From contig JBAZTR010000003.1 of assembly GCA_041661745.1 (NCBI GenBank), positions 91,007 to 155,006 of the forward strand: a stretch of 64,000 nt of DNA, in the 5' to 3' direction. A program made the position numbers and the translations under genes. Under the pieces are notes generated by a model. It saw only the letters and a program-made list of their open reading frames with translations. It made no database searches and was not told the origin of the DNA. Below are positions 6,980-41,707 of the stretch, piece by piece. Origin of the DNA: Patescibacteria group bacterium (GTDB lineage Bacteria > Patescibacteriota > Patescibacteriia > UBA9934 > GWF2-40-263). How positions within the stretch are numbered: the first letter of the stretch is position 1; each line of letters begins with the position of its first letter.

Positions 6980-7039
6980 AGCAGCTGTCTGACCCGCCAA
7001 ACTAAGCTTGATCAACCAATACCAGACAGCCAATTCAAT

Positions 7040-8728
7040 ATGAAACACTCAGCTCTTAGAATCGCGCTCTTTGCCCTTTTTTTAGGCGTCGTCTTCGACA
7101 CTTTGCTTTACCAAGCTTACGTGCCAGGAATCAACATCTTTTTACTCCAAATCGCTGTTTGCGCCGTCCTGTATTTTCTCATACGCCCCACTGACGTGAA
7201 ACTCACAAAACAGATTCTTGTCGCCGGAATATTTTCTTTACTTTTTGCGGGTACGTTTGCTATTTGGACTTCGCCGATTGGACTTGCCTTAAGCGTTATT
7301 GGCCTTGTCTGTGCAAATGCACTTCTCATTTTGTTTGTCTGGGGTCACCACGGTATTTTTCAACATCCTTTTTCTATCATCGGCGACACACTACGCTATA
7401 GTATTGAAGTATTTTTAACACACGTCAACATTTTCGGAGACATCAGACTTCCTAAAATGGGCACAAAAGGATCGGCCATCGTCCGCGGTTGCCTTGTTGC
7501 TCTGCCGATTTTGATTATCTTTTCTCTGCTCTTTGTCTCCTCTGATCTCATGTTGCAAATAAAAACTCAAAATATCCAAATCTGGCTTTCAAATGTTTTC
7601 GGACCTTACAACATTGTCGCACATCTCTTTTTCGTCGTACTTTTCACGCTCTTTTTCCTAATTGTCCTGGCAGCTACCTTCTGGAAACGCCTAAATTTTT
7701 CCCTTCCTAAAATCACGGAAAGCCATAGTCGCATTGAAAGCGCTGTCATTCTTCTTACAAGCAACGCCCTCTTTCTTTTTTTTCTTGTTTTCCAAGGATA
7801 TTACTTATTTGGCGGGCAAAAAGCTTTCGCCAGTATCGAAAATCTGACCTATTCAGAGTATGCTGTCGCGGGATTTAATCAGCTTGCCGTCGTCGCTACG
7901 CTTGTCCTTTTACTCATTCTGACGTTGCGCCATTTTCACGGATCAGAAATAAAAATGAAACTCGTGTCTTTTACAGAATTTGGACTCTTGGTTCAGACGA
8001 TCGCTCTTCTAATCTCTGCTTGGATTCGTCTACAAATGTATGTTGGGGAATATGGATTTACGCCCGCAAGATTATTCGGATTTTGGTTCTTTCTCTCAAG
8101 CGCGCTCCTAGCCGCCCTCCTGGGAGTTCATATTGCACGCTCCCTTTCTCAAGCTAAATTTATTTCCCAGGCACTCGTTTTTATGGGCTGCGCCATGCTT
8201 ATTTTTACCGCCTGTGCGCCTGACGCCCTTACCGTACGGCTCAACATTGCTCGTGCGGAACAAACAGGAAAGCTTGATCCTTTTCCTCTCTTTGATCAAT
8301 TATCGGCCGAGGCCTTTCCTCTTATGAGCACGGTGCTCTTTAGCGATCAATATCCGATTGGAAAACTTGATGCCGCCATCACAGATTATTGTCCTTTCGT
8401 GCGAGCGCATTATCGAGATGGATACATTTTAAACTTTACTCTCATTCCAGAACCACTAAAAGACGAAGCGCTGGCAACAGACGTCTACATACGGCAAGAA
8501 ATCGCTGATTTTCAAAATCGCTGGCTCACGCAGCCGGTTAATAAAGAAGGGGAGAATAAATTTCATTTCAGAAACGCTGATTGGAGATCATGGAATCTTG
8601 CCCGTGTATTCCTCCCAACCGAAACTCAAAACCCCATCATCACCTACGGCATACCCTTTCCCGCAGATCAAATTGCCAATGCCTGCGGAATGTATGTCGG
8701 GGATCCACAGACACAGCCAGAGGAGTAA
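7040..8728 (+). CDS. Polytopic integral membrane protein, hypothetical
   Basis: Many hydrophobic helices (MKHSALRIALFALFLGVVF...) and a C-terminal soluble region. The track ORF (6899) begins inside tRNA-Leu, so the start is placed at the first ATG after the tRNA. Confidence 0.55.
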   Translation: MKHSALRIALFALFLGVVFDTLLYQAYVPGINIFLLQIAVCAVLYFLIRPTDVKLTKQILVAGIFSLLFAGTFAIWTSPIGLALSVIGLVCANALLILFVWGHHGIFQHPFSIIGDTLRYSIEVFLTHVNIFGDIRLPKMGTKGSAIVRGCLVALPILIIFSLLFVSSDLMLQIKTQNIQIWLSNVFGPYNIVAHLFFVVLFTLFFLIVLAATFWKRLNFSLPKITESHSRIESAVILLTSNALFLFFLVFQGYYLFGGQKAFASIENLTYSEYAVAGFNQLAVVATLVLLLILTLRHFHGSEIKMKLVSFTEFGLLVQTIALLISAWIRLQMYVGEYGFTPARLFGFWFFLSSALLAALLGVHIARSLSQAKFISQALVFMGCAMLIFTACAPDALTVRLNIARAEQTGKLDPFPLFDQLSAEAFPLMSTVLFSDQYPIGKLDAAITDYCPFVRAHYRDGYILNFTLIPEPLKDEALATDVYIRQEIADFQNRWLTQPVNKEGENKFHFRNADWRSWNLARVFLPTETQNPIITYGIPFPADQIANACGMYVGDPQTQPEE

Positions 8729-10288: not shown

Positions 10289-10299
10289 TGTGCTATAAT
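10289..10299 (+). promoter_or_regulatory. Extended -10 promoter (TGtgcTATAAT), leaderless start
   Basis: TG at 10289-10290 and TATAAT at 10294-10299; the ATG at 10308 follows 8 nt downstream inside TAGGCGTATG. Confidence 0.45.
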
Positions 10300-20852: not shown

Positions 20853-21722
20853 ATGAAGATAAGAAAAGCTATTATCCCGGTCGCGGGCATGGGCACCCGT
20901 TTTTTACCGGCTTCCAAGGCCCAGCCAAAGGAAATGTTGGCCGTAGTCGATAAGCCCATCATTCAATATATCGTGGAGGAAGCGGTAGCCGCCGGCATTG
21001 AAGAAATTATTTTCGTTACCGCCATCGGCAAGCGAGCGATTGAAGATCATTTTGATCGCAACTTCGAGTTGGAGTATCGCTTGGAACAAAAAAACAAAAT
21101 CAAAGAGCTTAAAGAAATCCAAAGCATTGGTAAACTGGCCAAGTTTGCTTTTGTCCGTCAAAACAAACCGCTGGGCGATGGCCATGCTGTGCTCTCAGCC
21201 TTACCGTTTATTGAAAAACACGAGCCTGTAGCCGTGCTGTTTGGCGATGACATTATTGATAGCAAGGTGCCGGCCATCAAACAGTTGATTGAGGTTTACG
21301 AAAAATATCAGGATCCGGTCATGGCTTTACAAAAAGTTCCAAAAAAACTAGTTCCCAGCTTTGGGGTTATTGGTGGTAAAAAAGTTGATACAAAAACCTG
21401 GCAAATCGATCGTTTTGCCGAAAAACCAGCTTTGAAAGAGGCACCCTCTGATTTAATCGTCATCGGCCGTTATGTCTTGACTCCGGAAGTTTTGACCCTG
21501 CTCAAAGACACCAAACCCGGCAAGGATGGTGAAATTCGCCTAGCCAACGCTTTCGAAACTTGGCTTTCCATGAACCGTGCACTGTACGGCTGTGCTTACG
21601 AAGGAACTTGGTACAACTGCGGAAACAAACTGGGTTTTCTTATGGCTCAAGTTGAATTGGGTCTTAAACACCCGGAGGTTGGTAAGGATTTCAAAAATTA
21701 TCTCAAAAAATTCCTTGGTTAA
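20853..21722 (+). CDS. galU: UTP--glucose-1-phosphate uridylyltransferase
   Basis: MKIRKAIIPVAGMGTRFLPASKAQPKEMLAVVDKPIIQY is the GalU N-terminal signature; about 290 aa. Confidence 0.85.
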   Translation: MKIRKAIIPVAGMGTRFLPASKAQPKEMLAVVDKPIIQYIVEEAVAAGIEEIIFVTAIGKRAIEDHFDRNFELEYRLEQKNKIKELKEIQSIGKLAKFAFVRQNKPLGDGHAVLSALPFIEKHEPVAVLFGDDIIDSKVPAIKQLIEVYEKYQDPVMALQKVPKKLVPSFGVIGGKKVDTKTWQIDRFAEKPALKEAPSDLIVIGRYVLTPEVLTLLKDTKPGKDGEIRLANAFETWLSMNRALYGCAYEGTWYNCGNKLGFLMAQVELGLKHPEVGKDFKNYLKKFLG

Positions 21723-21732
21723 TTTTCAAAAT

Positions 21733-23103
21733 ATGCGACGACTTTTGTCCTTTTTGCTTCTTCTAACCCTTTTACCTTTAATGGGTGCCGGCTGTGGTCA
21801 GTCCCAAGCCGAAAAAGAAGCGGCCTTGCCGGTGACTCTTCAAGTATGGAGCGTTTTTGAAGATCAAGACGCTTTTGAGGAACTAATGAACGCGTATCGA
21901 ACCGTTCATTCCAATGTTTCTTTTAACATGAAGCTTCTTCGCTACGATGAGTACGAGGACGAGTTACTGCAGGCCTTTGCCCGCGGTGAGGGCCCGGATA
22001 TTTTTTCGATTCACAACACCTGGCTTGGTGAATATAAAGATTTAATAACTCCACTGCCAGCCTCGTTGTCTATTCCCTACACCGAAACAACGGGAACTAT
22101 AAAAAAAGAAACCGTTACCACCTTGCGTGAGGAAAAAGCTATTACTCAGCAGGAACTTAAAAACAATTATGTCGATGTAGTGTCTGATGATTTAATTCAA
22201 TCATATCAACCTGACCCAAACAAAGATGCCGAAGACAAAATTTTCGCCATTCCTCTTTACGTCGATACTTTGGTTCTATATTCCAACACTGATATCTTAA
22301 ATTCCGCCAATATTGCCGAACCGCCTGCGACTTGGCAGCTGTTTCAAGATCAGGTCAAACTTATCACTAAGGTAAATACCAATGGTGATATCACCCAATC
22401 GGCAGCAGCCTTCGGGGCCGGTGAGAATGTGGAGCGTTCCATGGATATTTTGTCAGTACTCATGATGCAAAACGGCACGGTTATGGAAAAGAATGGCAAA
22501 GCTGTCTTTTCCGAGCAAACCGAAGATCGTCGCACTCCGTCCTCCGAAGCTTTAAGCTTCTACTCTGCTTTTGCTAACCCGGTAAAAGATGTTTATACCT
22601 GGAATTCGGATATGACCGATTCTTTTGACGCTTTTGTTAACGGTGAAACGGCTTTCTTTTTTGGCTACGCTTATCATTTGCCGCTTATAAAACAGCAAGC
22701 GTCAAAACTTGAATATCGTATTTCCGCCCTGCCACAAATTGAAAACGGAAAAAATGTTAATTTTGCCAACTACTGGGCTTGGACAGTTTCTAAAGCCTCG
22801 AACAATTCCAAGTGGGCTTGGGATTTCATTCAGTATGCCGCCAAGAAAGAAAATGTCTCAACTTATCTTGAAAACACTGTCCGCCCCACAGCCTTGCGCG
22901 GACTTATTGCCGAGCAATCAGAAGATGATGACTTGGGTATCTTTGCCAACCAGCTTTTAACAGCCGAAAGTTGGTATCATGGAAACAATGCCAATGTGGT
23001 TGAGGAAGCTTTTATTTCTTTAATCGATAGTTCTATTACTTCCGGTCTTGAACTTGGAGACTTAATCAGAGAAGCAGAAAATAAAGTTAATCAGACTTAT
23101 TAA
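21733..23103 (+). CDS. ABC transporter substrate-binding (lipo)protein, family 1 sugar-type
   Basis: Signal/lipobox MRRLLSFLLLLTLLPLMGAGC and SBP_bac_1-like length and composition. The track ORF begins upstream at 21577; the signal-peptide start is 21733. Confidence 0.65.
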   Translation: MRRLLSFLLLLTLLPLMGAGCGQSQAEKEAALPVTLQVWSVFEDQDAFEELMNAYRTVHSNVSFNMKLLRYDEYEDELLQAFARGEGPDIFSIHNTWLGEYKDLITPLPASLSIPYTETTGTIKKETVTTLREEKAITQQELKNNYVDVVSDDLIQSYQPDPNKDAEDKIFAIPLYVDTLVLYSNTDILNSANIAEPPATWQLFQDQVKLITKVNTNGDITQSAAAFGAGENVERSMDILSVLMMQNGTVMEKNGKAVFSEQTEDRRTPSSEALSFYSAFANPVKDVYTWNSDMTDSFDAFVNGETAFFFGYAYHLPLIKQQASKLEYRISALPQIENGKNVNFANYWAWTVSKASNNSKWAWDFIQYAAKKENVSTYLENTVRPTALRGLIAEQSEDDDLGIFANQLLTAESWYHGNNANVVEEAFISLIDSSITSGLELGDLIREAENKVNQTY

Positions 23104-23104
23104 T

Positions 23105-23749
23105 ATGCGTCTTTTTATTGTTTCAATCTTTGCGGTTTTACTCCTTGCCCCCTTCGCGGTTTTGGCCGATGCCCAAACCGGTACGTGTGATGTTGCCGGT
23201 GGAGTAACCGATGTCAAAGATGTTGGAATATTTCTATCCGGCGTCTGTAACGAATGTTGGAACGAGGGTAATTGTAGTTTAACCGATTTCATGACCGTTG
23301 TTGCCAATACCGGCAACTTTATTTTGAGCATTATCGCCGGTCTGGTTTTCTTAGTCTACATTTTGGGTGGCTTCTTCTGGATCATTGCCCATGGTGATAA
23401 AGGCATGGTGGAAAAAGGGAAAAAATGGATTAAAAACGCCACCGTTGGTTTGGTCATTGTCCTTTTTGCCTACACTGGAGTGGTTGCCTTGCGGGCGGCC
23501 ATTACCGGCGAAACCGCAAGTACTGGATATGTCATCTGCTCAGGAGCAGACACTGATGGCGATTCGTGTGCCGCCAATTCAAAGTGTGATGGTTTCTCTT
23601 GTGTCAGCTCTTGTGAAAAATCATCTGATGGGGCTATGTGCACCGACGCGGAAACAGCCGCCACTTTCAAAAACACCGAATACTCTTGTACCGATGGCAC
23701 ATCATCCTGCCCCGCGGATTCACAAAAATGTTGCACTCCGGTTCCGTAA
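23105..23749 (+). CDS. T4SS/VirB2-TrbC-like pilin family protein (paralog 1) with a Cys-rich C-terminal extension
   Basis: Sec signal peptide, then two hydrophobic helices flanking the charged loop AHGDKGMVEKGKKWIKN. C-terminal 75 aa contain 12 Cys. One of 5 tandem paralogs. Confidence 0.5.
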   Translation: MRLFIVSIFAVLLLAPFAVLADAQTGTCDVAGGVTDVKDVGIFLSGVCNECWNEGNCSLTDFMTVVANTGNFILSIIAGLVFLVYILGGFFWIIAHGDKGMVEKGKKWIKNATVGLVIVLFAYTGVVALRAAITGETASTGYVICSGADTDGDSCAANSKCDGFSCVSSCEKSSDGAMCTDAETAATFKNTEYSCTDGTSSCPADSQKCCTPVP

Positions 23750-23761
23750 AATTAAAATAAT

Positions 23762-24097
23762 ATGTCTTTAAAAAAAATATTTTTCTCTCTATCCGTTCTC
23801 GGTCTTGGATCTTTACCCTTCACTGCCTCGGCCGTGGCTTTAACTAATCCTCTCGGCACTACGGACATTCGTGTCTTGGCCGGCAACATTATCAAGGCGG
23901 TTTTGGGTCTGGCTGGCGTGGCCGCATTTTTAATGTTTATCTGGGGCGGGGCGCAATGGATTATTTCCGGTGGCAAAAAAGAAACCATTGAAAAAGGAAA
24001 ACAAACGGTTGTTTGGGCAACGTTGGGCCTAGTTTTTATCTTTGTCTCCTACGCCGCTCTCTATACTCTGCTTGCGATTATCGGTTCGGCTTCTTAA
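23762..24097 (+). CDS. T4SS/VirB2-like pilin family protein (paralog 2)
   Basis: Signal peptide plus LMFIWGGAQWIISGGKKETIEKGKQTVVWATLGLVFIFVSYA; same architecture as the neighbours. Confidence 0.5.
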   Translation: MSLKKIFFSLSVLGLGSLPFTASAVALTNPLGTTDIRVLAGNIIKAVLGLAGVAAFLMFIWGGAQWIISGGKKETIEKGKQTVVWATLGLVFIFVSYAALYTLLAIIGSAS

Positions 24098-24163
24098 AAA
24101 ACACTTTAGTTTTCCACACCCCCTCGTCCTCTTCGTCCTCTTCGTCCCCCCAAACCCCTTAAA

Positions 24164-24174
24164 TGTGCTATAAT
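24164..24174 (+). promoter_or_regulatory. Extended -10 promoter (TGtgcTATAAT) for pilin paralog 3
   Basis: The 11-mer tgtgctataat is identical to the one at 10289-10299. A 9-bp tandem repeat cgtcctctt lies upstream. Confidence 0.45.
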
Positions 24175-24206
24175 AAACTCGTTTTAAAAAATCTTAATTA
24201 ATTATT

Positions 24207-24599
24207 ATGACAAAACTCAAAACCCTATTAGCTGGCCTGACCATTTTCGTCTTGTCAGCCCCGATCGCGCGTGCCGATGTTGTCACTGTTAACGAAATGT
24301 TTGGTGGCAACGCTGGCGATGAATTCGCCAACGAAGCTGGCCTTGGGGCCGGCGACCTCACTTCGACCATTGCCAACCTTATCCGCGTTGGTCTTGGCTT
24401 CCTCGGTATCGTCGCCGTCGTTATCATTCTCATCGGCGGTTTCAAGTGGGTAACAGCTGGTGGTGAGGAAGAAAAAGTTAAGAAAGCTAAAAAGTATATC
24501 TTCCAAGGCTTAATTGGTTTGGTCATTGTCTTGGCCGCTTACGCCATTGCCACCTTTGCTTTGGGTGCGATTACTACAGCCATGAATTCGTCCGTTTAA
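24207..24599 (+). CDS. T4SS/VirB2-like pilin family protein (paralog 3)
   Basis: Signal peptide, then IILIGGFKWVTAGGEEEKVKKAKKYIFQGLIGLVIVLAAYA. Confidence 0.5.
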   Translation: MTKLKTLLAGLTIFVLSAPIARADVVTVNEMFGGNAGDEFANEAGLGAGDLTSTIANLIRVGLGFLGIVAVVIILIGGFKWVTAGGEEEKVKKAKKYIFQGLIGLVIVLAAYAIATFALGAITTAMNSSV

Positions 24600-24669
24600 A
24601 AAATTCTCCCCCTTTTACAAAAAGGGGGATAACGCGAGCTGGTGAGTTTTTACCTCACCAATTCACGTT

Positions 24670-24999
24670 ATGAACGATTCAAAACTTCTTGCCGCGGCGA
24701 TTGATACGGTAACCGAGGGCTTGACTGTAACCGGCAGTACCGCTGGTTTTTCAAACCAAACACTCATCGATCTTATTCCCGGAGCAATCAATGTTCTTTT
24801 AGGACTTTTGGGAATTGTTGCTTTAGCTTTTACAATCTACGCTGGTATTCTCTACTTAACTTCACAAGGCAATAAAGACGCGGTGGAAAAAGCAAAGAAG
24901 GTTCTTACCTATTCGGCTATTGGCATGGTTCTAATTGTTGCTTCCTATGCCATTTCCAACTATCTCTTAGGCGCTCTAATTTCACTCTTCTCTGAATAG
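24670..24999 (+). CDS. T4SS/VirB2-like pilin family protein (paralog 4)
   Basis: LYLTSQGNKDAVEKAKKVLTYSAIGMVLIVASYAISNY; near-identical core to paralog 5. Confidence 0.5.
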   Translation: MNDSKLLAAAIDTVTEGLTVTGSTAGFSNQTLIDLIPGAINVLLGLLGIVALAFTIYAGILYLTSQGNKDAVEKAKKVLTYSAIGMVLIVASYAISNYLLGALISLFSE

Positions 25000-25056
25000 A
25001 TAGTCACTAAATTATTCCGTAAAAAATCTTTTAAAAAAAATAATTAATTTAAAAAT

Positions 25057-25449
25057 ATGAACAAAATTTTCGCAACAATAGTGGCTTTTGGGCAGGTCTA
25101 TCTACTCTTTCCTCTTATGGCCTCGGCAGCAGTTCCAACCGGTTTGAGCGGAGCCAATACCGGTTTAACAAATATCGCTACCAGCGCTAATATACAGAAC
25201 TCTGGAGATTTAACAGTGTTAATTGGTAAAGGTATCAATGTCATTCTTGGTCTTTTGGGTATCCTGTTCCTGATCTTTGTTCTCTACGCTGGTTTTCTTT
25301 ATTTGACTGCACAAGGTGCTGACGAGCCAGTTAAAAAAGCCAAAAAACTTCTTACTAACTCTATCATTGGTCTGGTTATCATAATTGCGGCCTACGCCAT
25401 TTCCAACTACGTCATTGGAGCGTTGACTTCCATAACCTCCGCTACCTAA
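25057..25449 (+). CDS. T4SS/VirB2-like pilin family protein (paralog 5)
   Basis: LYLTAQGADEPVKKAKKLLTNSIIGLVIIIAAYAISNY. Confidence 0.5.
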   Translation: MNKIFATIVAFGQVYLLFPLMASAAVPTGLSGANTGLTNIATSANIQNSGDLTVLIGKGINVILGLLGILFLIFVLYAGFLYLTAQGADEPVKKAKKLLTNSIIGLVIIIAAYAISNYVIGALTSITSAT

Positions 25450-25456
25450 AAAAATA

Positions 25457-25494
25457 AAACGCGTTTTGACCATTTGGCCAAGACGCGTTTTTTG
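25457..25494. terminator. Terminator hairpin after the pilin array
   Basis: aaacgcgttttgacca-ttt-ggccaagacgcgttt followed by T6. Confidence 0.5.
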
Positions 25495-25559
25495 TTTAAA
25501 CAAATACCCCGGCCCGCAAACATTTCTGTTGCGAACCGGGGGTGACGCTTCCCCACCCT

Positions 25560-26300
25560 CTAGAACGAGGGGGGGACGGAGAGTTCCTGCGGCCCGGGAA
25601 GATCTCCGAAGATTCTCCGGGTGATTTCGCCGGAATCGACCAGCCAGTAGCCGGGCCGACTCTCCGTGACTTCTCGGAGGACGAAGTTGGACGACGCCCC
25701 AGGGGTGCCGATCAACCAGATCGTGCCCTCCCCCGACCAGGTGACCGGGGTGCCGGACATCTCGACCTCGGAGACGCGATCGTCTCCGTTGAAGTTGCCG
25801 ACGACCGTCCGGACCCGACCGAACCGATCGATGACCGGGACGATCCCTTCGGGCCCGGCCACGGTGTAGGTCCGGCCGCGGTCCAGCTGGATCGTGGCGC
25901 AGTGGTCGCACTGCAGCCACCGGACCAGTCCCAGGGGGTTGTAGGAAAACGCCCGGAGCGGCGGGTCCATCATCTCCGGCGCCTGGACACCGCCGACCGG
26001 GAAGGCCGGGGGCATCGGGCGGATGACAGGAACCGGCTCGGGGACGGACGCAGGCTTGGCGGCCACGGCCAACTTGGCCTCGGCCGCGTCCGCGCGCCAC
26101 TGGGCCCACGCGAGGTCGACGGTCTGGATGCAGTCCTGGTCGTCGCCGACGCAGGCCTGCTTCAGCGTCAAGTAGCAGTCGATCGGATCGACCGCTTCCT
26201 TGCACGCCCCGAGCTCGGCCGCGGTGGCGGCGAGGGCGGAGGTGGAGGCGAAGAACGCGATGATGGCCGCGGCGAGGGCGGCGAGGATGGAACGGATCAT
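25560..26300 (-). CDS. Hypothetical secreted protein (high-GC island gene)
   Basis: Signal peptide MIRSILAALAAAIIAFFASTSALA; Cys-containing mature region. Coding GC is far above the window background. Confidence 0.45.
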   Translation of the reverse strand: MIRSILAALAAAIIAFFASTSALAATAAELGACKEAVDPIDCYLTLKQACVGDDQDCIQTVDLAWAQWRADAAEAKLAVAAKPASVPEPVPVIRPMPPAFPVGGVQAPEMMDPPLRAFSYNPLGLVRWLQCDHCATIQLDRGRTYTVAGPEGIVPVIDRFGRVRTVVGNFNGDDRVSEVEMSGTPVTWSGEGTIWLIGTPGASSNFVLREVTESRPGYWLVDSGEITRRIFGDLPGPQELSVPPSF

Positions 26301-26351
26301 GGTGAATCTCCAGAAAACGGAAGGGATGGATTGGATTGGACCGGAGCCAGA

Positions 26352-26789
26352 TTACTCGCCGGACTCCAGGATGACCCGGAAGTCGGCGCGCGACCTCTCG
26401 AGTTCGACTCGCACCTTCTCGAGCTCCAGGAGGAGCTGCCGGTCGATAACGAGCGTTGCACCACGGCTGTCCATGGCCTGGGTCATGCCCGACTGCTGGA
26501 GAGAGACCCAGTCGGTGAGACGGGCTCCCGGCGTGGCGGACCACGCCTCGAACGGGAAGAGCCATCCGCACTGGCTGGGGTTCACCATGCATGCCGCCTG
26601 CGCTTCGGCCAGGGTGTACCTGGCGGAGGCGTCGATCACGACGGCCGCGCCACGGGGCGTGACCGCGCGAGCGGCCGCCTCGAGTTCGCCATTGACTCCC
26701 CGATGCACAGAGACGCACCCGTTGAGGACGAACAGTACGGCGAGAACGAGGACGGAGAGGATGGAACGCATGGATGCTCCTTGGCGCAA
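26352..26789 (-). CDS. Hypothetical lipoprotein (high-GC island gene)
   Basis: Signal peptide with lipobox LNGC (MRSILSVLVLAVLFVLNGC); 145 aa. Confidence 0.45.
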   Translation of the reverse strand: MRQGASMRSILSVLVLAVLFVLNGCVSVHRGVNGELEAAARAVTPRGAAVVIDASARYTLAEAQAACMVNPSQCGWLFPFEAWSATPGARLTDWVSLQQSGMTQAMDSRGATLVIDRQLLLELEKVRVELERSRADFRVILESGE

Positions 26790-27088
26790 TGCACCTGAAC
26801 GGATTGTGGTTGGTTGAGTTGGTTTTCAGGTTGAAAAGAACCGAAGAAGCAGCAAAATTTCCTTTGTTTAGCGGCTTTTTTGGTTCTTCTAAGCTTTCAA
26901 AAGTACTCAATAATATATCACAAAATTGGGGTTTTGTCAAGGCATGCGACTGAAGAATTTATCTAATTTAAGCTAATTTTAGTTCTCCCTCCCTCATATA
27001 ACTCTTGTTTTTTATATGGGGGAGGGATGGGGAGAGGAAAAAATAAAAGCCCCAGCCTGAGTTAACAAGCCGGGGCGAGGAGTCGGGC

Positions 27089-29497
27089 CTAGTGCCCGGA
27101 ACTCCTGAGACAGGTCGCATGGTTCACCGGATCCTGGATCCGGGAACAGTCGATCTGCTTCCGCTTCCCCGAAGGAGTCGAGGCAGCGGGCGGGTGGGAC
27201 GTGGTGGCTGTAGTGGGTGCCACCTGGGAACTGGCGGCCGCGGGCTGGCTGGGCACCGCGGTCGGGGCGGCTGGAGCCGGCTGAACGATCTGGGCCGACG
27301 TGTTCGGGTCGTCGCCGAATCCGAATTTACAGTCAACCAAGAGCGACACGCCGACGATCAGGAACACCAGCGAGCCGAACAGGACGGCCAGAATGGCCAG
27401 GTACGAACCAGCGGCTCGGAAGCCGCGTGCTGTTCCGCTCTGGCTCTCGTCCTGAGCACCGAGAACGGCCAGGAGCAAGCCACCAGCCACAGCCACAGCC
27501 GGCGACACCACCAGGATCCAGGCCCAGAACGTGTGGGAGCAACCCCACATGGAGGGGACCGGAGCCGAGGAGGCAGTCGAGGCCGACTGTCCGCCGATGA
27601 CGCTGGCCAACTCTTCGGCCTGCGCCTTCTTGGCCTTGGCCTTGTCCAGCTCCTCTGGGAACCGGTCAGGCTTCAGGTCGTACGTGAAGTGGCCGAAGCC
27701 ATCCTCACGGACGCGGACTTCCAGAGCCCCCGGGAGGTTGGCGACCAACCGCGCTTCGGAGTAGACATGGCCATTGCTGACCGTGACCATTCCGTGCTTG
27801 GTGGCCGCGACGCCGAAGACCTCCTCGAGGGAGTACTCTCCGTCGTCCGTCTGGTCGTAGGGGTTGGAGTAGACGACCACGAACTCGTTGGTCGTTCCCT
27901 GCACCACCCTGGCCTCAACGGGTTCCCAGGCCCACTCGGTTCGGGCCATGAGAGCCGCTAGCACTGCGAAGAGCGGGATTGCTCCCACCCACGTGACGGT
28001 GCGGAGGAACTTGGACTCCCAGATGTCCATCCTCCTCACTTGGGAGTAGCCGACCACAGCCGCGGTCGACAGCATCGCGGCAACGATCAGGAGAGATCGT
28101 GCCTGAATGCCGCCAGCCAGACCAACTGTGATCAAGCCAACTGCCCCGAAGAAGAGGGTGAAGAACGCCCCGGAGAACCCGAGGTTCCGAAGCCACGGCA
28201 CCGAGGTCGTGGCTGGCGTGACGTTGAAGCCCAACCGCTGTCCGACGATTCGGAACTGATCCATGAACCAGTCCACCAACCCCTGGATGGGGATGAGGAG
28301 GAGCATGGAGATGGTGAGCAACACGGTGCCGGCCATCCACTTCCAGAGCTGGCCGTGGTACCAGCCGTCCAAGAAGAACATCTCGGCCGACCAGTAGGTG
28401 AAGCGCAGGTAGCCGTAGCCCAGAAGCCCGATCACGAGGAGCAAAATCCCGAAGATTCCAGCCACGACCGCGACGACCGCCTTCCAGTTCCTTTCGGAAA
28501 TCCAGTGAGAGATCCTGTCCGTGGCCGTGTCGAGGTGCCCGGCGAGCCTGTCCTTGAGGCGCGGATTGAACACCGCGTCCACCCGGCGCACGAAGCGCTG
28601 GTAGAGGTCGTTGGTCGGCTCGACGCCCTTCGTTCCTTCATTCAGAAGGTCCTTGAGCAAGCGGATCTTGCTCCAAGCATCCTCCTCGAAGGCACGCTGG
28701 ACGAGAGCCGCAGCCAGGCCCCTCTCGGACATGGCGCGGTCGACCAGGCGCCCGAAGACCCAGCGTTCCTCCTCGGACAGGGTGTCCTCGAAGGCCTTGG
28801 GCTTGGGCGGATCGATCGACGACGAGGAGCCGGCTCCGGTCATGAGGATCTTGACCAACGAGCCACCGCAGCACGGGCAGATCCGAAGACCCGTCTGCTT
28901 AGCGATTGCCTCCCAGTCAGCCTCATCGACGCGATACTTCTGGGCCGGACGGATAACCGTCTTCTTCGGCGACTTGGGATTGCTCATATCGACCGTGGCC
29001 ACCTCGGTGTTGGCCAACTCGAAAGCAGCGGTCCGCTGCAAGAGCTCGGCACACTTGCTTGTGGTGTGAAGGCCCATGGCGGCCGGCTCGATCCAGTACT
29101 TGTCCGGAGCCAACGGCTCCTTGGCCTTGGCATCGCTGCCGGCCTTGACCTTGATCTTGTCGGTCATCTCCTTGGTGAAGTCCAACCAGGACTTGGCACC
29201 ACCGACGACGACCGACTCGAGGATCTCGGTGAGGTACGGCTCGAAGACCGCCCCGATGGGGCCGATCTTGCGGAGGGCCGCCCTGACCGGCTCCTTGAAG
29301 GCTCCGGCCGTGGCTCCGGCACCGGCGATGACGCTCCACTTGGCCGGCTCCGGCATATTTGAGATGGCCACAGCCAGATTCTCGAGAGTCGGCGACTTGG
29401 TGATGGCCGAGGCCCCGAGGTGGGCGATGATCGCCTCACCGGTCTCGGAGATGGCAGTGGAGAGAGCAGCGGAGGAAACGGAAGATGCGGTAGACAT
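27089..29497 (-). CDS. Large hypothetical polytopic membrane protein with a CPCCGG zinc-ribbon-like motif and a Pro/Ala/Thr-rich C-terminal tail (high-GC island gene)
   Basis: Start set at MSTASSVSS after a long 5' UTR that begins at an AT-rich TTGACA-17-TATAAAT promoter (minus strand, about 29640-29670). More than 8 hydrophobic helices. No family assigned. Confidence 0.5.
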   Translation of the reverse strand: MSTASSVSSAALSTAISETGEAIIAHLGASAITKSPTLENLAVAISNMPEPAKWSVIAGAGATAGAFKEPVRAALRKIGPIGAVFEPYLTEILESVVVGGAKSWLDFTKEMTDKIKVKAGSDAKAKEPLAPDKYWIEPAAMGLHTTSKCAELLQRTAAFELANTEVATVDMSNPKSPKKTVIRPAQKYRVDEADWEAIAKQTGLRICPCCGGSLVKILMTGAGSSSSIDPPKPKAFEDTLSEEERWVFGRLVDRAMSERGLAAALVQRAFEEDAWSKIRLLKDLLNEGTKGVEPTNDLYQRFVRRVDAVFNPRLKDRLAGHLDTATDRISHWISERNWKAVVAVVAGIFGILLLVIGLLGYGYLRFTYWSAEMFFLDGWYHGQLWKWMAGTVLLTISMLLLIPIQGLVDWFMDQFRIVGQRLGFNVTPATTSVPWLRNLGFSGAFFTLFFGAVGLITVGLAGGIQARSLLIVAAMLSTAAVVGYSQVRRMDIWESKFLRTVTWVGAIPLFAVLAALMARTEWAWEPVEARVVQGTTNEFVVVYSNPYDQTDDGEYSLEEVFGVAATKHGMVTVSNGHVYSEARLVANLPGALEVRVREDGFGHFTYDLKPDRFPEELDKAKAKKAQAEELASVIGGQSASTASSAPVPSMWGCSHTFWAWILVVSPAVAVAGGLLLAVLGAQDESQSGTARGFRAAGSYLAILAVLFGSLVFLIVGVSLLVDCKFGFGDDPNTSAQIVQPAPAAPTAVPSQPAAASSQVAPTTATTSHPPAASTPSGKRKQIDCSRIQDPVNHATCLRSSGH

Positions 29498-29714
29498 GGG
29501 ATTTCTTTCCGTGCGCTTTAAAGGCGCGTTTTGTTGTGAAGGGACATGGTTCCGCTCATTTTGCCAATCGTGGGGCAACCCCAACAGACGGCGAGACGGA
29601 AAATTGCCCTCTATACGGCCTTGTGGGCACGCACGGAGAACGTGTATTTATATCATATTTTTAAAGATTTGTCAACCGTGTTTCCCTCCATTTTTCGCTT
29701 AAATTAAACAAAAA

Positions 29715-33827: not shown

Positions 33828-34289
33828 ATGCAAATACCATCATCCCTTCATCCGTTTCACAAACGCACTTTAATTGTTGTCACCAACACCTTAAAAGCCA
33901 AAACTTTTTTGGCTGATGGGCTAAACCTAACCGAGGCCGGAGAGATTGACGTGACCTCTGATCTTGAACAAGAAAACGGCGAACGCGAGGCAATAAAATA
34001 CGGCGGAGCCAGTCAGCCTAATTTTGCTTCAAACGATGAATATGGCACAAAAAAGGACCATATTACCAAAGATCATTTTTATAATGCTTTAAACAAGGAA
34101 CTAATGCATCGAATGCAAAACAACGAATTTGATGTTTTGGCTTTTACTGTTCCAGAAGACCTGGAAAACGAACTGAAAGAATCGCTTCACGGACAGTTGT
34201 TAAAAAAGACGGAAATTTTTGTCCCAAAAAACTTGATGAATGACGATGTTTTAGACGTAGTTGCGGTAATCCAGGAAATGCCGGAATAA
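33828..34289 (+). CDS. Hypothetical protein
   Basis: 153-aa soluble ORF with no firm family assignment. Confidence 0.4.
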   Translation: MQIPSSLHPFHKRTLIVVTNTLKAKTFLADGLNLTEAGEIDVTSDLEQENGEREAIKYGGASQPNFASNDEYGTKKDHITKDHFYNALNKELMHRMQNNEFDVLAFTVPEDLENELKESLHGQLLKKTEIFVPKNLMNDDVLDVVAVIQEMPE

Positions 34290-38575: not shown

Positions 38576-39694
38576 CTATTGTTTAATAGGCATAATAATA
38601 TACAACTGATCTTCTTGATTAAAAGGTTTTATAACACAGGGGTTTGAACCATCAATCATTTTAAAAGAAACATCTTCAGTTCCTATTGATTGAAGGCCGT
38701 CGAGAAGGTAACGAAAGTTTAAGGTGACGGAATTTTCAATCCCGGAAACTTCAATTTTGGTTGAGGCGGAGTTTTCGCCGCGCGAAGCATCGGCCGCACT
38801 GACTCGCAGTGATCCGCTTGGGTCGAAAAATATCGTCACATCAAAAAGACCGGAACGAGAAAACAAACTAGCGGTCTTAACGGTGTTTATAAGGTCTTCG
38901 CGATTAACCTTGGCTTCGGTTTGAAAATTTTGTGGAATAATCTGTTGATAATCCGGGAAGTTCCCCTCAATAACACGGGAAATTAACTCCACCGAACCGT
39001 AAGTAAAAACAATTTGGTTTTCTGACAAACTTATTTGGACTTCGTTTGGTGAATCTGAGGTGTCTTTAAAAAGGGAAAAGATTCGGTGGGCCTCAATAAC
39101 GGTTTTAACCGGGACAATAACCGAGGTTTCGCTGGCCGACTCGTTTGGCAAAACAACGGTCTTTTCAACCAAACGATAAGAATCAGTAGCTGCAATAATT
39201 AACTTATTTTTCTTAAACTGGAGTAATAAGCCTGAAAGCTCTGGTCTTGATTCGTTATTGGCCGCGGCAAAAACTGTTTGTGAAACCGCGTCCCGAAAAA
39301 GATCAACGGGTATTGTATAAACTTTTTCAGCGGAAACAGCCGGAACCAAAGGAAAGTCAGATGATGGTAATCCATTAATCTTAGTTTTATTATCCCCAGC
39401 TTCCAGGTGTAAAACGCTTTCTTCCACCTTTAAATCAATCTTTTCTTCTTTTAATAAGGAAATGTAATCGTAGAAAAGTTTTGAAGGAATGGTAATTTCG
39501 CCATCCTCATCAATCTTTCCCCTTACTAAACAACTAACCGCCATTTCCAAGTTTGTTGAAGTAAAACGAATATTCCCATTTTTTGCCACCAATAGAACAT
39601 TATTAAGAATAGGTAGTTGAATGTTCTTGGTAGAGAGGTGACTGGTTATTGCTAACCCCATTTGAAGATTCGTTTTTAAACAAGAAACTTTCAT
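38576..39694 (-). CDS. dnaN: DNA polymerase III beta sliding clamp
   Basis: Three-domain ~370 aa protein with a DnaN N-terminus; follows dnaA. Confidence 0.85.
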   Translation of the reverse strand: MKVSCLKTNLQMGLAITSHLSTKNIQLPILNNVLLVAKNGNIRFTSTNLEMAVSCLVRGKIDEDGEITIPSKLFYDYISLLKEEKIDLKVEESVLHLEAGDNKTKINGLPSSDFPLVPAVSAEKVYTIPVDLFRDAVSQTVFAAANNESRPELSGLLLQFKKNKLIIAATDSYRLVEKTVVLPNESASETSVIVPVKTVIEAHRIFSLFKDTSDSPNEVQISLSENQIVFTYGSVELISRVIEGNFPDYQQIIPQNFQTEAKVNREDLINTVKTASLFSRSGLFDVTIFFDPSGSLRVSAADASRGENSASTKIEVSGIENSVTLNFRYLLDGLQSIGTEDVSFKMIDGSNPCVIKPFNQEDQLYIIMPIKQ

Positions 39695-39745
39695 AACTAT
39701 AATTATCTTTTATATATATTATTTATAGTAATAGTAGTAGGTGTT

Positions 39746-39754
39746 GTGGATAGA
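39746..39754. promoter_or_regulatory. DnaA-box-like 9-mer TGTGGATAG in the dnaA-dnaN intergenic region
   Basis: 8 of 9 match to TGTGGATAA, next to the AT-rich tract tatatatattatttatagtaatagtag. Confidence 0.4.
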
Positions 39755-39934
39755 GTGGAAAAACGAGGTTTTGGTCTAAAACAAGCGAAAAAAGAGATAG
39801 AGAAAAAGTGTGTAAGAAGTCAATTAAAAAGTAGTTAACAGTGAATAGAATTTACTCTTTTTTGATGGGGTTATTTCTTTAAGGTTTCTTCCCCCCGATA
39901 GACACAGACTTATTCACCTCTTATCCTTTGCGTT

Positions 39935-41338
39935 TTAAACGTAAATTCTTTGTTTTATTACCTCAACATCTTGTTGCAACTTTTCATCGATAACAATTTG
40001 ATTGGAAATCTTCTCATAAGCGTGCATAGCCGTGGTGTGATCACGTCCGCCCAGTTCAGAACCAATAGAAGGAAAACTAGATTTCATTTCCTCTCTCATT
40101 ATATACATGATAATTTGGCGCGGGAAAGCTAGACGTTTTTCACGACTCTTTCCCAAAAGATCTTCTATTTCTAATTCAAAATATCCGGCCACGGTTTGAA
40201 TAAGTTGTCTTGGGGTAACACTCTTTTTGTTTTTAGTTGGTAGAAAACTAGCCAAGATAGATTTAACTGATTCGATTGTTGGAACGGTGTTTTTAAATTG
40301 ATGAAGAGCAATAATTTTGTTCAAAGCCCCTTCGAGTTCACGGACATTACTTTGAATCATTGTGCCAATATGGTGAAGAATACTTTGATCCAAAATATAG
40401 TTCTTTTCGCGACATTTGGCTTGTAAAATAGCAATTCTTGTTTCAAAATCAGGGCTGCCGATATCGGCCATCATTCCCATTTCAAAACGTGACGACAAGC
40501 GTTGTTCAAGATCGGGAATGGCTTTGGGTGGGCGATCAGAAGTTAAAATAATCTGTTTGTTGTTTTGATGAAGAGTGTTAAAGGTGTGGAAAAATTCTTC
40601 CTGAGTTCCTTCCTTCCCTGTTATGAATTGGATGTCGTCAATTAAAAGAGCATCAACAGTTCGATAAATATCTTTAAACTCTTTCATTTTATTTGTGCGG
40701 ATAGCGTAAATATAATCATTAGTGAATTTTTCACTAGTGACATAAAGAATTCGTGCGTTGCTGTTCTGTTTGGCTATTTCGTTTCCAACAGCTTGTAAAA
40801 GGTGGGTTTTGCCCAAACCAACCCCACCATAAAGGAAGAGAGGGTTATAAACACTGCCGGGTTGGCTGGCTACAGCCTGGGCCGCGGCATGGGCAAGTTC
40901 GTTTTGTTTTCCAACAATAAAGCTGGAGAAGGAATATTTTGGGTTTAAAGAAACTTCGATGGTTTCGTGTTGGCTAATTGGGGAAGATGACGGTTGAGAT
41001 TGATAAATAGCTGATTTTGGTGCCTCCTGAGCTTCAAAAACAATATCCATACCTTCTGCCGGGTCGATCGAAACCGGCATGCCTGGTTTTGTTTCGACTT
41101 TGTAAACAATACTTTTGATTTTGGCGTTGTTGGCTAACACCTGGATCATGTTGTGAATTTCCTTGTGATATTTTTTTTCTAACCAAGTTTTGGTAAAAGT
41201 GTTGGGAACACCAACAATGACCTCGTTTTCGCTAAAATTAGCAATAAAAGTATTTTTAAACCAAGTGGTAAAGTTGGCCTTACTAAGTTTTAGCTCTAGT
41301 TCGCCTAGAACCGCCTGCCAAAGTTCATTGGTATTCAT
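39935..41338 (-). CDS. dnaA: Chromosomal replication initiator DnaA
   Basis: N-terminal ELWQAVLGELELKLSKANFTTWF, AAA+ Walker A GGVGLGKTHLL and the C-terminal DNA-binding domain. Confidence 0.9.
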   Translation of the reverse strand: MNTNELWQAVLGELELKLSKANFTTWFKNTFIANFSENEVIVGVPNTFTKTWLEKKYHKEIHNMIQVLANNAKIKSIVYKVETKPGMPVSIDPAEGMDIVFEAQEAPKSAIYQSQPSSSPISQHETIEVSLNPKYSFSSFIVGKQNELAHAAAQAVASQPGSVYNPLFLYGGVGLGKTHLLQAVGNEIAKQNSNARILYVTSEKFTNDYIYAIRTNKMKEFKDIYRTVDALLIDDIQFITGKEGTQEEFFHTFNTLHQNNKQIILTSDRPPKAIPDLEQRLSSRFEMGMMADIGSPDFETRIAILQAKCREKNYILDQSILHHIGTMIQSNVRELEGALNKIIALHQFKNTVPTIESVKSILASFLPTKNKKSVTPRQLIQTVAGYFELEIEDLLGKSREKRLAFPRQIIMYIMREEMKSSFPSIGSELGGRDHTTAMHAYEKISNQIVIDEKLQQDVEVIKQRIYV

Positions 41339-41415
41339 ATGGAGCATGGGGCCCAAAAGGGCAAAAAAGGTCGAAATTTGTTAGTTTTTGTTTACTTCGG
41401 CTTCTAGTTTACCAT

Positions 41416-41424
41416 TTATCCACA
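41416..41424. promoter_or_regulatory. Perfect DnaA box TTATCCACA between dnaA and rpmH
   Basis: Exact consensus 9-mer in the classic rpmH/dnaA divergent intergenic region. Confidence 0.55.
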
Positions 41425-41516
41425 AGGGGGCAAGAGGTCAAGTAGTGGGTATGTAGGTTGATAAACTGTGGAAAGTGTGGTAATAATATACACGCTTATT
41501 AAAATACAATACAGTT

Positions 41517-41669: not shown

Positions 41670-41707
41670 GGTATAATGAAAACAGGGGTTAAGCCCCTGT
41701 TATTCAT

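What the first reader, a model, noticed from the sequence alone, without database searches (positions are those of the whole stretch)
23105..25449. Tandem array of five paralogous T4SS/VirB2-like pilin genes, the first with a Cys-rich tail
Five consecutive small ORFs (109-214 aa) share one architecture: a Sec-type signal peptide, a hydrophobic helix, a short Lys/Glu-rich loop (e.g. GGKKETIEKGKQ), and a second hydrophobic helix ending in a Y-A-I/L motif. That is the VirB2/TrbC-type pilin layout, reported as abundant in CPR bacteria. There is no prepilin (G/F) cleavage motif. The array follows an ABC substrate-binding lipoprotein gene with a 1-nt gap. Paralog 3 has its own extended -10 promoter identical to the one at 10289-10299. 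Paralog 1 carries a 75-aa C-terminal extension with 12 cysteines (GYVICSGADTDGDSC...CCTPVP). No VirB4/VirD4 ATPase is present in this window.
Basis: partly seen in the sequence, partly recalled or inferred. Interest (0 to 1): 0.6.

Follow-up and report, generated by a model that had tools for sequence, protein, structure and literature searches.

The report
VirB2-like pilin gene array, Uhrbacteria
Five neighbouring small genes in this ultra-small (CPR/Patescibacteria) bacterium encode diverged copies of a secretion-system pilin, a kind of array already described in this phylum. The more surprising thing is a fast-evolving, oddly GC-rich three-gene block right next to it.

Summary
Five consecutive ORFs (214, 111, 130, 109, 130 aa) at 23105-25449 all pass Pfam's cut-off for PF18895 T4SS_pilin. 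They share a two-helix hairpin with a basic loop.

Corrections: the Cys-rich tail is 74 aa with 10 Cys (14 in the whole protein), and paralog 4 has no signal peptide.

The source is a Candidatus Uhrbacteria MAG, and NCBI already names paralog 1 'pilin'. Tandem VirB2-like arrays of 2-11 genes were reported in 383 Patescibacteria assemblies in 2025, so this is a new member of a known kind.

New here:
- The array is old and order-conserved. Each paralog has a positional ortholog in at least 8 lineages.
- It is always translationally coupled to an orphan ABC substrate-binding lipoprotein gene.
- Paralog 3 has a conserved extended -10 promoter.
- Paralog 1 carries an undescribed disulfide-rich ectodomain with invariant cysteines.

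No VirB4/VirD4 lies within 76 kb. About half of Uhrbacteria MAGs have VirB4, so dependence on a T4SS is inferred, not shown.

Side finding: a convergent three-gene envelope-protein cassette (25560-29497) has GC3 0.82-0.90 against 0.43 in the rest of the window. It exceeds its background in 11 lineages, and its proteins are only ~25% identical between them.

The parts
20853..21722 (+). UTP-glucose-1-phosphate uridylyltransferase-type gene (NTP_transferase), first gene of the conserved UGP-SBP-pilin run
   Evidence: Pfam PF00483 precomputed on the identical contig. It sits upstream of SBP in all related loci.
21733..23103 (+). Orphan ABC-type extracellular solute-binding lipoprotein (456 aa). 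Its stop codon is 1 nt before the paralog 1 ATG.
   Evidence: PF01547 SBP_bac_1, E=1.3e-23. N-terminus MRRLLSFLLLLTLLPLMGAGC. The 1-nt gap is shown. No permease or ATPase gene is nearby. The tight junction with pil1 is kept in L004, L006 and L014.
23105..23749 (+). Pilin paralog 1 (214 aa). Layout: signal peptide, 4-Cys N-terminal ectodomain, helical hairpin, then a 74-aa C-terminal domain with 10 Cys.
   Evidence: PF18895, 33.7 bits. Twelve of the 14 Cys are invariant and one more is nearly so in 15 family members. AF2 mean pLDDT 78, helices 59-94 and 99-134, tail pLDDT 75-89. The tail has no Pfam or PDB match.
23762..24097 (+). Pilin paralog 2 (111 aa)
   Evidence: PF18895 38.1 bits; TrbC PF04956 20.5 bits, below cut-off. 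86% identical to its positional ortholog in L004.
24164..24175 (+). Extended -10 promoter element TGTGCTATAATA upstream of paralog 3
   Evidence: Same 12-mer as at 10289. TGnTATAAT is conserved at the same distance upstream of the paralog 3 orthologs in L004, L006, L014 and L015; L016 and L017 have TGCTATACT.
24207..24599 (+). Pilin paralog 3 (130 aa). Best conserved paralog, so the candidate major subunit.
   Evidence: PF18895 36.1 bits. 87%, 79% and 58% identical to orthologs in L004, L006 and L014. It has its own conserved promoter.
24607..24629 (.). G+C-rich palindrome (TCCCCCTTTTACAAAAAGGGGGA) between paralogs 3 and 4
   Evidence: Terminator-like hit. The T-run follows only on the minus strand, so its role for the + strand operon is uncertain.
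24670..24999 (+). Pilin paralog 4 (109 aa), without an N-terminal signal peptide
   Evidence: PF18895 39.1 bits. NF045849 42.6 bits, above its cut-off of 40. No N-terminal hydrophobic segment.
25057..25449 (+). Pilin paralog 5 (130 aa)
   Evidence: PF18895 37.7 bits. 53% identical to paralog 4, the closest pair in the array.
25450..25497 (.). Inverted repeat / bidirectional terminator between the converging pilin array and gene A
   Evidence: Repeat I2: arms 25450-25472 and 25475-25497, 83% complementary, T-run after (sequence).
25560..26300 (-). Gene A of the adjacent GC-rich cassette: secreted 246-aa protein with 6 invariant Cys. Adjacent to the array; a functional link is not shown.
   Evidence: GC3 0.90. 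Signal peptide. Six Cys invariant in 5 lineages. No family hit.
26352..26771 (-). Gene B of the cassette: 139-aa lipoprotein (lipobox LNGC)
   Evidence: GC3 0.82. The G-C lipobox is invariant. A near-consensus promoter TTGACA-17-TATATT with TG lies at 26940-26912.
27089..29497 (-). Gene C of the cassette: 802-aa polytopic membrane protein with an N-terminal soluble domain (invariant C149, C207, C210), about 7 TM segments and a conserved C-terminal Cys pair
   Evidence: GC3 0.83. TM segments. Only 10 relatives among 1.84 billion representatives. Invariant residues. AF2 pLDDT 53, so the model is unusable.

Best explanation
The five genes encode diverged VirB2-like (PF18895) pilin-family proteins of a Candidatus Uhrbacteria (Patescibacteria, class ABY1) chromosome.

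Shown:
- Each protein is a two-helix hairpin with a short basic loop.
- The array is ancient and order-conserved, with a positional ortholog for every paralog in related lineages.
- Paralogs 1-2 are joined to an orphan solute-binding lipoprotein gene by a 1-nt gap.
- Paralog 3 has its own conserved extended -10 promoter.

Inferred:
- The proteins insert into the membrane with both termini outside and the basic loop inside. Four use a cleavable signal peptide; paralog 4 inserts directly.
- They are then extracted and polymerised by a monoderm-type (MPF-FATA-like) VirB4 machine encoded elsewhere in the genome. The product is a short surface filament or conduit used for contact or exchange with a host cell.
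- The paralogs have separate, stable roles. Paralog 3 is the major subunit.
- Paralog 1 is a minor subunit. Its two disulfide-rich ectodomains (14 Cys) would sit on the filament surface or tip as an adhesin, possibly together with the co-translated SBP lipoprotein.
For: - Family: PF18895 above cut-off for 5 of 5 proteins and for 22 of 22 in syntenic arrays. TrbC/VirB2 matches at E<0.01 in 8 of 22, best 2.6e-7. NF045849 is above cut-off for paralog 4.
- Fold and topology: hydrophobic segments and basic loop. The AF2 hairpin of paralog 1 has mean pLDDT 78.
- Separate stable roles: best cross-genome match is always the same array position, at 39-87% identity, against 32-53% within the array. Pil2 and pil3 are 86-87% identical to L004, as conserved as housekeeping flanks at 77-92%.
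- Promoter: conserved in 5-7 lineages.
- Cys-rich domains: 12 of 14 Cys are invariant in 15 homologs, and the tail is confidently folded.
- Published context (PMC12102498): 441 such arrays; a pilin array is essential in S. epibionticum; T4SS genes often lie near dnaA.
- Here the array is ~14.5 kb from dnaA/dnaN.
- A clade member carrying the paralog 1 ortholog is VirB4-positive.
Against: - No VirB4, VirD4, VirB6, TrsD or PrgI family is detectable within the 64-kb window or the 76-kb contig, nor within +/-10 kb of the array in any related locus.
- Only 18 of 36 Uhrbacteria MAGs in one block of Table S1 have VirB4, yet the array was present in every related locus sampled.
- The fold search gives no significant match to solved conjugative pilins. 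The best is 8dfu at E=2.7. PDB sequence profiles find none.
- There are no homologs in 72,556 plasmids.
- No PF18895 protein has been shown biochemically to form a pilus, as far as the papers read here say.
Confidence: 0.6

Rival explanations
1. The proteins belong to the pilin family by descent but no longer act with a T4SS. They are small membrane hairpins that anchor or organise surface proteins. For example, they could form a membrane platform for the co-translated orphan solute-binding lipoprotein (nutrient capture or adhesion), with paralog 1 displaying a disulfide-rich ectodomain directly from the cell membrane.
For: - The SBP-pil1 junction is tight in every lineage examined: a 1-3 nt gap or a 4-nt overlap.
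- The SBP has no cognate permease or ATPase nearby.
- No T4SS part lies within 76 kb.
- VirB4 is detected in only about half of Uhrbacteria MAGs, while the array is conserved under purifying selection.
Against: - One genome of the clade with the locus does have VirB4, and draft MAGs are incomplete.
- In Patescibacteria at large, pilin genes co-occur with VirB4 in 1,948 assemblies, and 1,135 of those have a pilin gene near virB4.
- No precedent for this role was found.
Confidence: 0.25
2. The array is a repertoire of interchangeable major pilins used for antigenic or host-range variation. This was proposed for the VirB2 paralog arrays of Bartonella and Anaplasma, and suggested for Patescibacteria.
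For: - Low within-array identity: 32-53% in local alignments and 19-30% to paralog 1 in the multiple alignment.
- The N-terminal ectodomains are the most variable parts.
- The suggestion is made in PMC12102498.
- L004 and L006 have a sixth copy, from duplication of the paralog 4/5 type.
Against: - Strict positional orthology and strong conservation of paralogs 2 and 3 across lineages (86-87% to L004).
- No sign of gene conversion between copies.
- The sequence is identical in three independent assemblies.
- Expression signals differ between copies, with a conserved promoter only before paralog 3.
Confidence: 0.1
3. They are not pilins at all but another class of small secreted or membrane peptides: bacteriocin, holin, or type IV pilus prepilins.
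For: Small size, signal peptides, two hydrophobic helices and a Cys-rich tail on one member.
Against: - No bacteriocin, holin or prepilin family matches at E<=1.
- No prepilin peptidase motif.
- PF18895 is above cut-off in all five.
Confidence: 0.03

Closest known systems
VirB2-like pilin arrays of Patescibacteria (Quinonero-Coronel et al. 2025, PMC12102498), including the essential array of Ca. Southlakia epibionticum ML1 and the array of TM7x
   Same: - Same Pfam family (PF18895/PF04956).
- Tandem layout of 2-11 genes and low within-array identity (reported mean 25%, maximum 54%; here the maximum is 53%).
- Chromosomal location near dnaA.
   Different: - This array is in Uhrbacteria (ABY1), whereas the paper found arrays most abundant in Microgenomatia and Saccharimonadia.
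- It is not near virB4.
- It is fused into an operon with an orphan SBP lipoprotein gene.
- Its first member carries a disulfide-rich C-terminal domain that is not mentioned in the paper.
TrbC/VirB2 pilins of diderm T4SS (PF04956; Agrobacterium VirB2, RP4 TrbC, F TraA)
   Same: Signal peptide, two hydrophobic helices and a short basic loop. Weak profile similarity: 20.5 bits for paralog 2, and a best E of 2.6e-7 among orthologs.
   Different: - Scores are below the PF04956 gathering cut-off in this window.
- The host is a monoderm-like CPR cell.
- There is no adjacent VirB3-VirB11 operon.
- N-terminal ectodomains are longer, and one member has a 74-aa C-terminal domain.
Mbov_0395 family pilin-like conjugal transfer protein of Mycoplasma ICEs (NCBIfam NF045849)
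   Same: Paralog 4 passes the family cut-off (42.6 against 40). Paralogs 3 and 5 score ~38 bits. All align over nearly the whole 80-position profile.
   Different: This locus is not on an ICE. There is no relaxase, VirB4 or VirD4 nearby. It has five paralogs instead of one gene.
VirB2 paralog arrays of Bartonella and Anaplasma phagocytophilum
   Same: Tandem amplified and diverged VirB2 genes in a host-dependent bacterium.
   Different: Those arrays sit in or beside complete virB operons and are thought to serve antigenic variation. Here the paralogs are positionally orthologous and conserved, which argues for fixed division of labour.

Membership tests
Pfam PF18895 T4SS_pilin | Profile score at or above the gathering cut-off (26.6 bits) | tested here: met
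   33.7, 38.1, 36.1, 39.1 and 37.7 bits for paralogs 1-5. 22 of 22 pilins in four syntenic arrays match.
Pfam PF18895 T4SS_pilin | Two hydrophobic helices joined by a short charged loop (helical hairpin) | tested here: met
   Hydropathy segments and alignment. AF2 model of paralog 1 has helices 59-94 and 99-134, with block-mean pLDDT of 75-89 over that region.
Pfam PF18895 T4SS_pilin | N-terminal signal peptide preceding the hairpin | tested here: inconclusive
   A hydrophobic N-terminal segment is clear in paralogs 1, 3 and 5, weaker in 2, and absent in 4 and its orthologs. No dedicated signal-peptide predictor was available.
VirB2-type T4SS pilin (functional class) | Encoded in a genome with a VirB4 ATPase and other mating-pair-formation parts, usually nearby | tested here: not met
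   No VirB4, VirD4 or VirB6 domain within the window or the 76-kb contig, nor within +/-10 kb in relatives. The rest of this genome could not be read. One clade member is VirB4-positive and about half of Uhrbacteria MAGs are.
VirB2-type T4SS pilin (functional class) | Polymerises into an extracellular pilus or conduit | not testable with these tools
   The monomer fold is compatible, but a helical hairpin is not diagnostic. Foldseek's best conjugative-pilus hit is 8dfu at E=2.7.
Pfam PF04956 TrbC/VirB2 | Profile score at or above the gathering cut-off (27.9 bits) | tested here: not met
   20.5, 18.2 and 12.2 bits for paralogs 2, 3 and 5. Among orthologs, 8 of 22 match at E<0.01, best 2.6e-7, and a precomputed unmarked TrbC hit exists in L027. 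Related, but not a member by the curated threshold.
NCBIfam NF045849 Mbov_0395 pilin-like conjugal transfer protein | Score at or above the cut-off (40 bits) | tested here: inconclusive
   Paralog 4 scores 42.6 (met). Paralogs 3 and 5 score 38.3 and 38.4 (just below). Paralogs 1 and 2 score 15.5 and 12.4.
Type IV pilus (T4P) prepilin | Class III signal peptide with the G/F(M)TLIE prepilin peptidase site | tested here: not met
   A regex search finds no such motif in any paralog. No T4P pilin family appears in Pfam or NCBIfam output.

The most novel reading that the evidence does not exclude
The pilin array and the convergent GC-rich C-B-A cassette are one host-interaction module. The cassette's composition is set by the host rather than by the Uhrbacteria genome. 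Its three envelope proteins (secreted, lipoprotein, polytopic) carry near-consensus sigma-70 promoters. Their codon usage (GC3 up to 0.9) is mismatched to their own genome and differs between lineages. This is what would be expected if they are made in, exchanged with, or tuned to a high-GC host cell reached through the pilin-based apparatus, a bacterial analogue of T-DNA-type cargo.

A weaker version is that a locus-specific GC-raising process, such as biased gene conversion at a recombination hot spot, acts on hypervariable host-specificity genes.
Probability: 0.05. Interest if true: 0.9.

Novelty: new member of a known kind. Interest (0 to 1): 0.4.

Why it matters
The role of the T4SS-like apparatus of Patescibacteria is an open question. 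It is essential in the one species tested, and its function is described as completely unknown (PMC11665869).

This locus adds a clade-wide, order-conserved pilin set with apparent division of labour. It also adds a candidate adhesin-type pilin with a new disulfide-rich domain, and a fixed genetic link to a solute-binding lipoprotein. All of these are concrete targets for expression, localisation and structure work.

The neighbouring cassette is a clean natural example of a gene block that keeps a GC content far above its genome across many lineages while its proteins diverge almost to saturation. That bears on how base composition is set locally in bacterial genomes.

Tried and rejected
2. 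PDB sequence-profile searches with 5- and 22-member pilin profiles returned only spurious 'Pizza' designer-protein repeats.
3. tblastn of paralog 4 against 72,556 plasmids found no match.
4. Assembly chimera as the cause of the GC-rich block: rejected. Three independent assemblies are 100% identical, and the block recurs in 11 lineages.
5. Recent horizontal import from a well-sampled high-GC phylum: not supported. C has only 10 relatives in 1.84 billion representatives, and every one whose genomic context was checked lies at the same Uhrbacteria locus. A has 3 clusters in 5.8 billion.
6. Import from high-GC Uhrbacteria: not supported. In the 57% GC lineage L027 the block is still higher than its flanks.
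7. Mobile element with target-site duplication: the boundary repeat TTAAACAAA is matched by 8 of 200 shuffles and does not recur in L004 or L015. No tRNA lies at the edges. No close viral relatives were found.
8. Within-population hypervariability (DGR-like): rejected by the 100% identity between assemblies.
9. Block proteins as divergent VirB6/VirB7/VirB8: no support from Pfam, NCBIfam, PHROGs or PDB profiles. The AF2 model of C is too poor to search (pLDDT 53).
10. The indexed homology searches for C and A were swamped by low-complexity candidates.
11. No Rfam family in 20-31 kb.
Full report
**1. Observation**

The ORF listing finds the five + strand ORFs exactly as described: 23105-23749 (214 aa), 23762-24097 (111), 24207-24599 (130), 24670-24999 (109) and 25057-25449 (130).

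A multiple alignment shows the shared core. It consists of a hydrophobic helix, a loop of the type G-x-K/E-x-x-V/I-x-K-[AG]-K-K, and a second hydrophobic helix with an invariant Tyr. Invariant positions in paralog 1 numbering are L74, G89, G97, K104, K106, G115, V117 and Y123.

Points that check out:
- Hydropathy finds two strong segments in each protein, plus an N-terminal one in paralogs 1, 3 and 5. The N-terminal segment is weaker in paralog 2 and absent in paralog 4.
- The SBP stop codon is 1 nt before the paralog 1 ATG.
- TGTGCTATAATA is present both at 24164 and at 10289.

Two details of the finding are wrong:
- The C-terminal extension is 74 aa with 10 Cys, not 75 aa with 12. Four further Cys lie in the N-terminal ectodomain.
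- Paralog 4 has no signal peptide.

**2. Family**

- All five proteins pass the Pfam gathering cut-off for PF18895 T4SS_pilin, at 33.7-39.1 bits against 26.6.
- Paralogs 2, 3 and 5 also give sub-threshold TrbC/VirB2 (PF04956) matches.
- In NCBIfam, paralog 4 passes the cut-off of NF045849 (Mbov_0395 pilin-like conjugal transfer protein). Paralogs 3 and 5 fall just short.
- Across the 22 pilins of four syntenic arrays, 22 match PF18895 (best E=1.3e-15) and 8 match PF04956 at E<0.01 (best 2.6e-7).
- No prepilin-peptidase motif is present, and PHROGs gives nothing.
- An AlphaFold2 model of paralog 1, built from 15 family members, has mean pLDDT 78. It shows a long helical hairpin (59-94 and 99-134) and a confidently folded small beta-rich C-terminal domain.
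- Foldseek against the PDB gives no significant hit. An archaeal conjugative pilus (8dfu) appears at E=2.7. The hairpin fold is compatible with a pilin but not diagnostic, so membership rests on sequence profiles.

**3. Source and prior knowledge**

- The window is 100% identical to contigs from three independent assemblies.
- NCBI already names paralog 1 'MAG: pilin [Patescibacteria group bacterium]'.
- Relatives in species-representative genomes are Candidatus Uhrbacteria MAGs.

Quinonero-Coronel et al. 2025 (PMC12102498) searched 3,035 Patescibacteria genomes with PF18895 and PF04956. They reported:
- 441 VirB2 arrays of 2-11 genes in 383 assemblies, with mean within-array identity 25% and maximum 54%.
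- Pilins in 1,948 VirB4-positive assemblies, with a pilin gene near virB4 in 1,135 of them.
- An essential pilin array in Ca. S. epibionticum.

They also note that T4SS genes often lie near dnaA. In this window, dnaA (39935-41356) and dnaN (38576-39694) are about 14.5 kb from the array. The kind of object is therefore already described.

**4. What is specific to this locus**

(a) Synteny. The run UGP-SBP-pil1...pil5(6) is present in every related locus examined.

(b) Positional orthology. Each window paralog's best match in L004, L006 and L014 is the gene at the same array position. Cross-genome identity is 39-87%, higher than within-array identity of 32-53%. Against L004, paralogs 2 and 3 are 86-87% identical, which is as conserved as housekeeping flanks at 77-92%. 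Paralogs 1, 4 and 5 are 62-72% identical. The sixth copy in L004 and L006 is a duplicate of the paralog 4/5 type. This argues for old duplication with stable, separate roles, and against a pool of interchangeable variants.

(c) Expression signals. An extended -10 (TGnTATAAT) lies about 35-45 nt upstream of paralog 3. It is conserved in W, L004, L006, L014 and L015, and nearly so in L016 and L017. Paralogs 1 and 2 follow the SBP gene with gaps of 1 and 12 nt. A bidirectional terminator hairpin follows paralog 5.

(d) Paralog 1 family. It has 17 members, all metagenomic or Uhrbacteria. In 15 aligned members, 12 of the 14 Cys are invariant and one more is nearly so. The tail matches no Pfam family and no PDB sequence.

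With the basic loop inside the cell, both the N-terminal domain and the tail are extracytoplasmic, where disulfides can form. In a VirB2-type polymer they would lie on the outer surface. That last step is an inference from established knowledge of F and T pilus architecture.

**5. The missing machine**

- Pfam scans of all large ORFs and most small ones in the window find no VirB4, VirD4/T4CP or VirB6.
- Precomputed Pfam annotations on the identical 76-kb contig extend this beyond both window edges.
- No related locus has such genes within +/-10 kb.
- In Table S1 of PMC12102498, Ca. Uhrbacteria GW2011_GWE2_45_35 is VirB4-positive. This genome is the source of P0006, a 56%-identical ortholog of paralog 1.
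- Only 18 of 36 Uhrbacteria MAGs in one stretch of that table are VirB4-positive.

Dependence of this array on a T4SS is therefore plausible but unproven. I put it at about 0.6. A T4SS-independent membrane or surface role, perhaps with the SBP lipoprotein, gets about 0.25.

**6. Side finding: a GC-elevated, hypervariable cassette**

Directly after the array, 25,500-29,600 has 60-73% GC in a ~44% GC window. The coding frames are on the minus strand, with GC3 of 0.82-0.90. These are z-scores of 4.9-5.9 against the other 63 ORFs, which have mean GC3 0.433.

The three genes are:
- A (25560-26300), a secreted protein.
- B (26352-26771), a lipoprotein.
- C (27089-29497), an 802-aa polytopic membrane protein.

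The intergenic DNA is AT-rich and carries near-consensus promoters and terminators.

The cassette lies at the same site, between the last pilin and Pyr_redox, in 11 lineages, and its GC3 exceeds the flanks in every one:

| Locus | Cassette GC3 | Flank GC3 |
|---|---|---|
| L004 | 0.67-0.76 | 0.18-0.43 |
| L006 | 0.87-0.92 | 0.43-0.53 |
| L010 | 0.75-0.91 | 0.32 |
| L014 | 0.41-0.50 | 0.29-0.37 |
| L015 | 0.76-0.89 | 0.36-0.47 |
| L017 | 0.66-0.75 | ~0.4 |
| L019 | elevated total GC (0.55-0.60 against 0.36-0.43) | – |
| L026 | 0.64-0.74 | 0.31-0.49 |
| L027 | 0.85-0.90 | 0.58-0.68 |
| L028 | 0.70-0.77 | 0.47-0.55 |

L016 is an empty site, with Pyr_redox directly after the last pilin.

Between lineages, A, B and C are only ~23-32% identical while the flanks are 54-87%. 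The exception is the closest pair, W-L004, at 53/45/28%. Invariant Cys residues and the lipobox show that the proteins are nevertheless orthologous.

The families are tiny. C has 10 representatives in 1.84 billion, and A has 3 clusters in 5.8 billion. Neither has any family or structure match.

The following explanations are rejected or unsupported:
- Assembly chimera.
- Import from another phylum.
- Import from high-GC Uhrbacteria.
- A mobile element with target-site duplication.
- Close viral relatives.
- Within-population hypervariation.

Because the whole region is syntenic, adjacency to the pilins does not by itself prove a functional link. The cause of the persistent GC excess is unexplained. 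Candidates are biased gene conversion at a recombination-prone surface-protein locus, selection on synonymous sites, or tracking of a host's composition.

**7. Verdict**

The object is a new member of a published kind, with three incremental novelties: a Cys-rich pilin domain, SBP coupling, and conserved division of labour among the paralogs. The neighbouring cassette is the less expected feature and deserves its own follow-up.

Noticed in passing
window 25500-29700 (genes 25560-26300, 26352-26771, 27089-29497, all minus strand): Three-gene envelope-protein cassette (secreted A, lipoprotein B, polytopic C) with GC3 0.82-0.90 against a window mean of 0.43. It sits at the same syntenic site and is GC-elevated relative to its flanks in 11 Uhrbacteria lineages. 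It is absent in one (L016). Its proteins are only ~25% identical between lineages whose flanks are 54-87% identical. It has no known family. The cause of the GC excess is unexplained.
   Followed up: yes
window 60826-61893 (+), 51907-52302 (-), 51305-51670 (+), 2485-3366 (+), 44575-45144 (+): Other ORFs with moderately raised GC3 (0.57-0.68). All but the ComF-like phosphoribosyltransferase (44575-45144) have no Pfam match. Raised GC may be a general property of lineage-specific genes in this genome.
   Followed up: no
window 38576-42912: Replication-origin neighbourhood: dnaN, dnaA, rnpA and a yidD-fusion gene. The pilin array is ~14.5 kb away, in line with the published remark that Patescibacteria T4SS genes cluster near dnaA.
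   Followed up: partly
window 24098-24163; L004, L006, L015, L016 and L017 upstream of paralog 3: The spacer between paralogs 2 and 3 holds a C/T-rich tract with CGTCCTCTT repeated three times. It also holds a motif TTTTCCACA/TTGTCCACA that recurs ~50-75 nt upstream of the conserved -10 in several lineages. This may be a regulator binding site.
   Followed up: no
window 26772-26940 and 29498-29673: Both transcription units of the GC-rich cassette have near-consensus promoters (TTGACA-17-TATATT with TG; TTGACA-17-TATAAA). Each is followed by an unusually long (~140 nt) AT-rich leader before the start codon.
   Followed up: no
window 59870-60355 (-); L004 18884-19246: bAvd / 23S rRNA intervening-sequence-protein-like four-helix-bundle genes (PF05635/PF22296). 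This is the accessory protein type of diversity-generating retroelements. No reverse transcriptase was seen in the window.
   Followed up: no
L018 (CAYJVP010000054.1) and L020 (CAYYFM010000093.1): Two species-representative MAGs labelled 'uncultured Gammaproteobacteria' carry the Uhrbacteria-type UGP-SBP-pilin locus. They are probably mis-binned or mis-classified contigs.
   Followed up: no
window 33828-34289 (+) and 3548-6208 (+): A baeRF_family12 / Host_attach protein (a release-factor-like 'host attachment' family) and an 886-aa protein with three lamin-tail domains. Both are possible surface or host-interaction factors.
   Followed up: no
window 6893-6979 against ORF 6899-8728: tRNA-Leu(taa) overlaps the 5' end of the longest ORF for the DUF4153 protein. 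The real start is further downstream: 562 aa were called on the identical contig, against 609 aa for the longest ORF.
   Followed up: no
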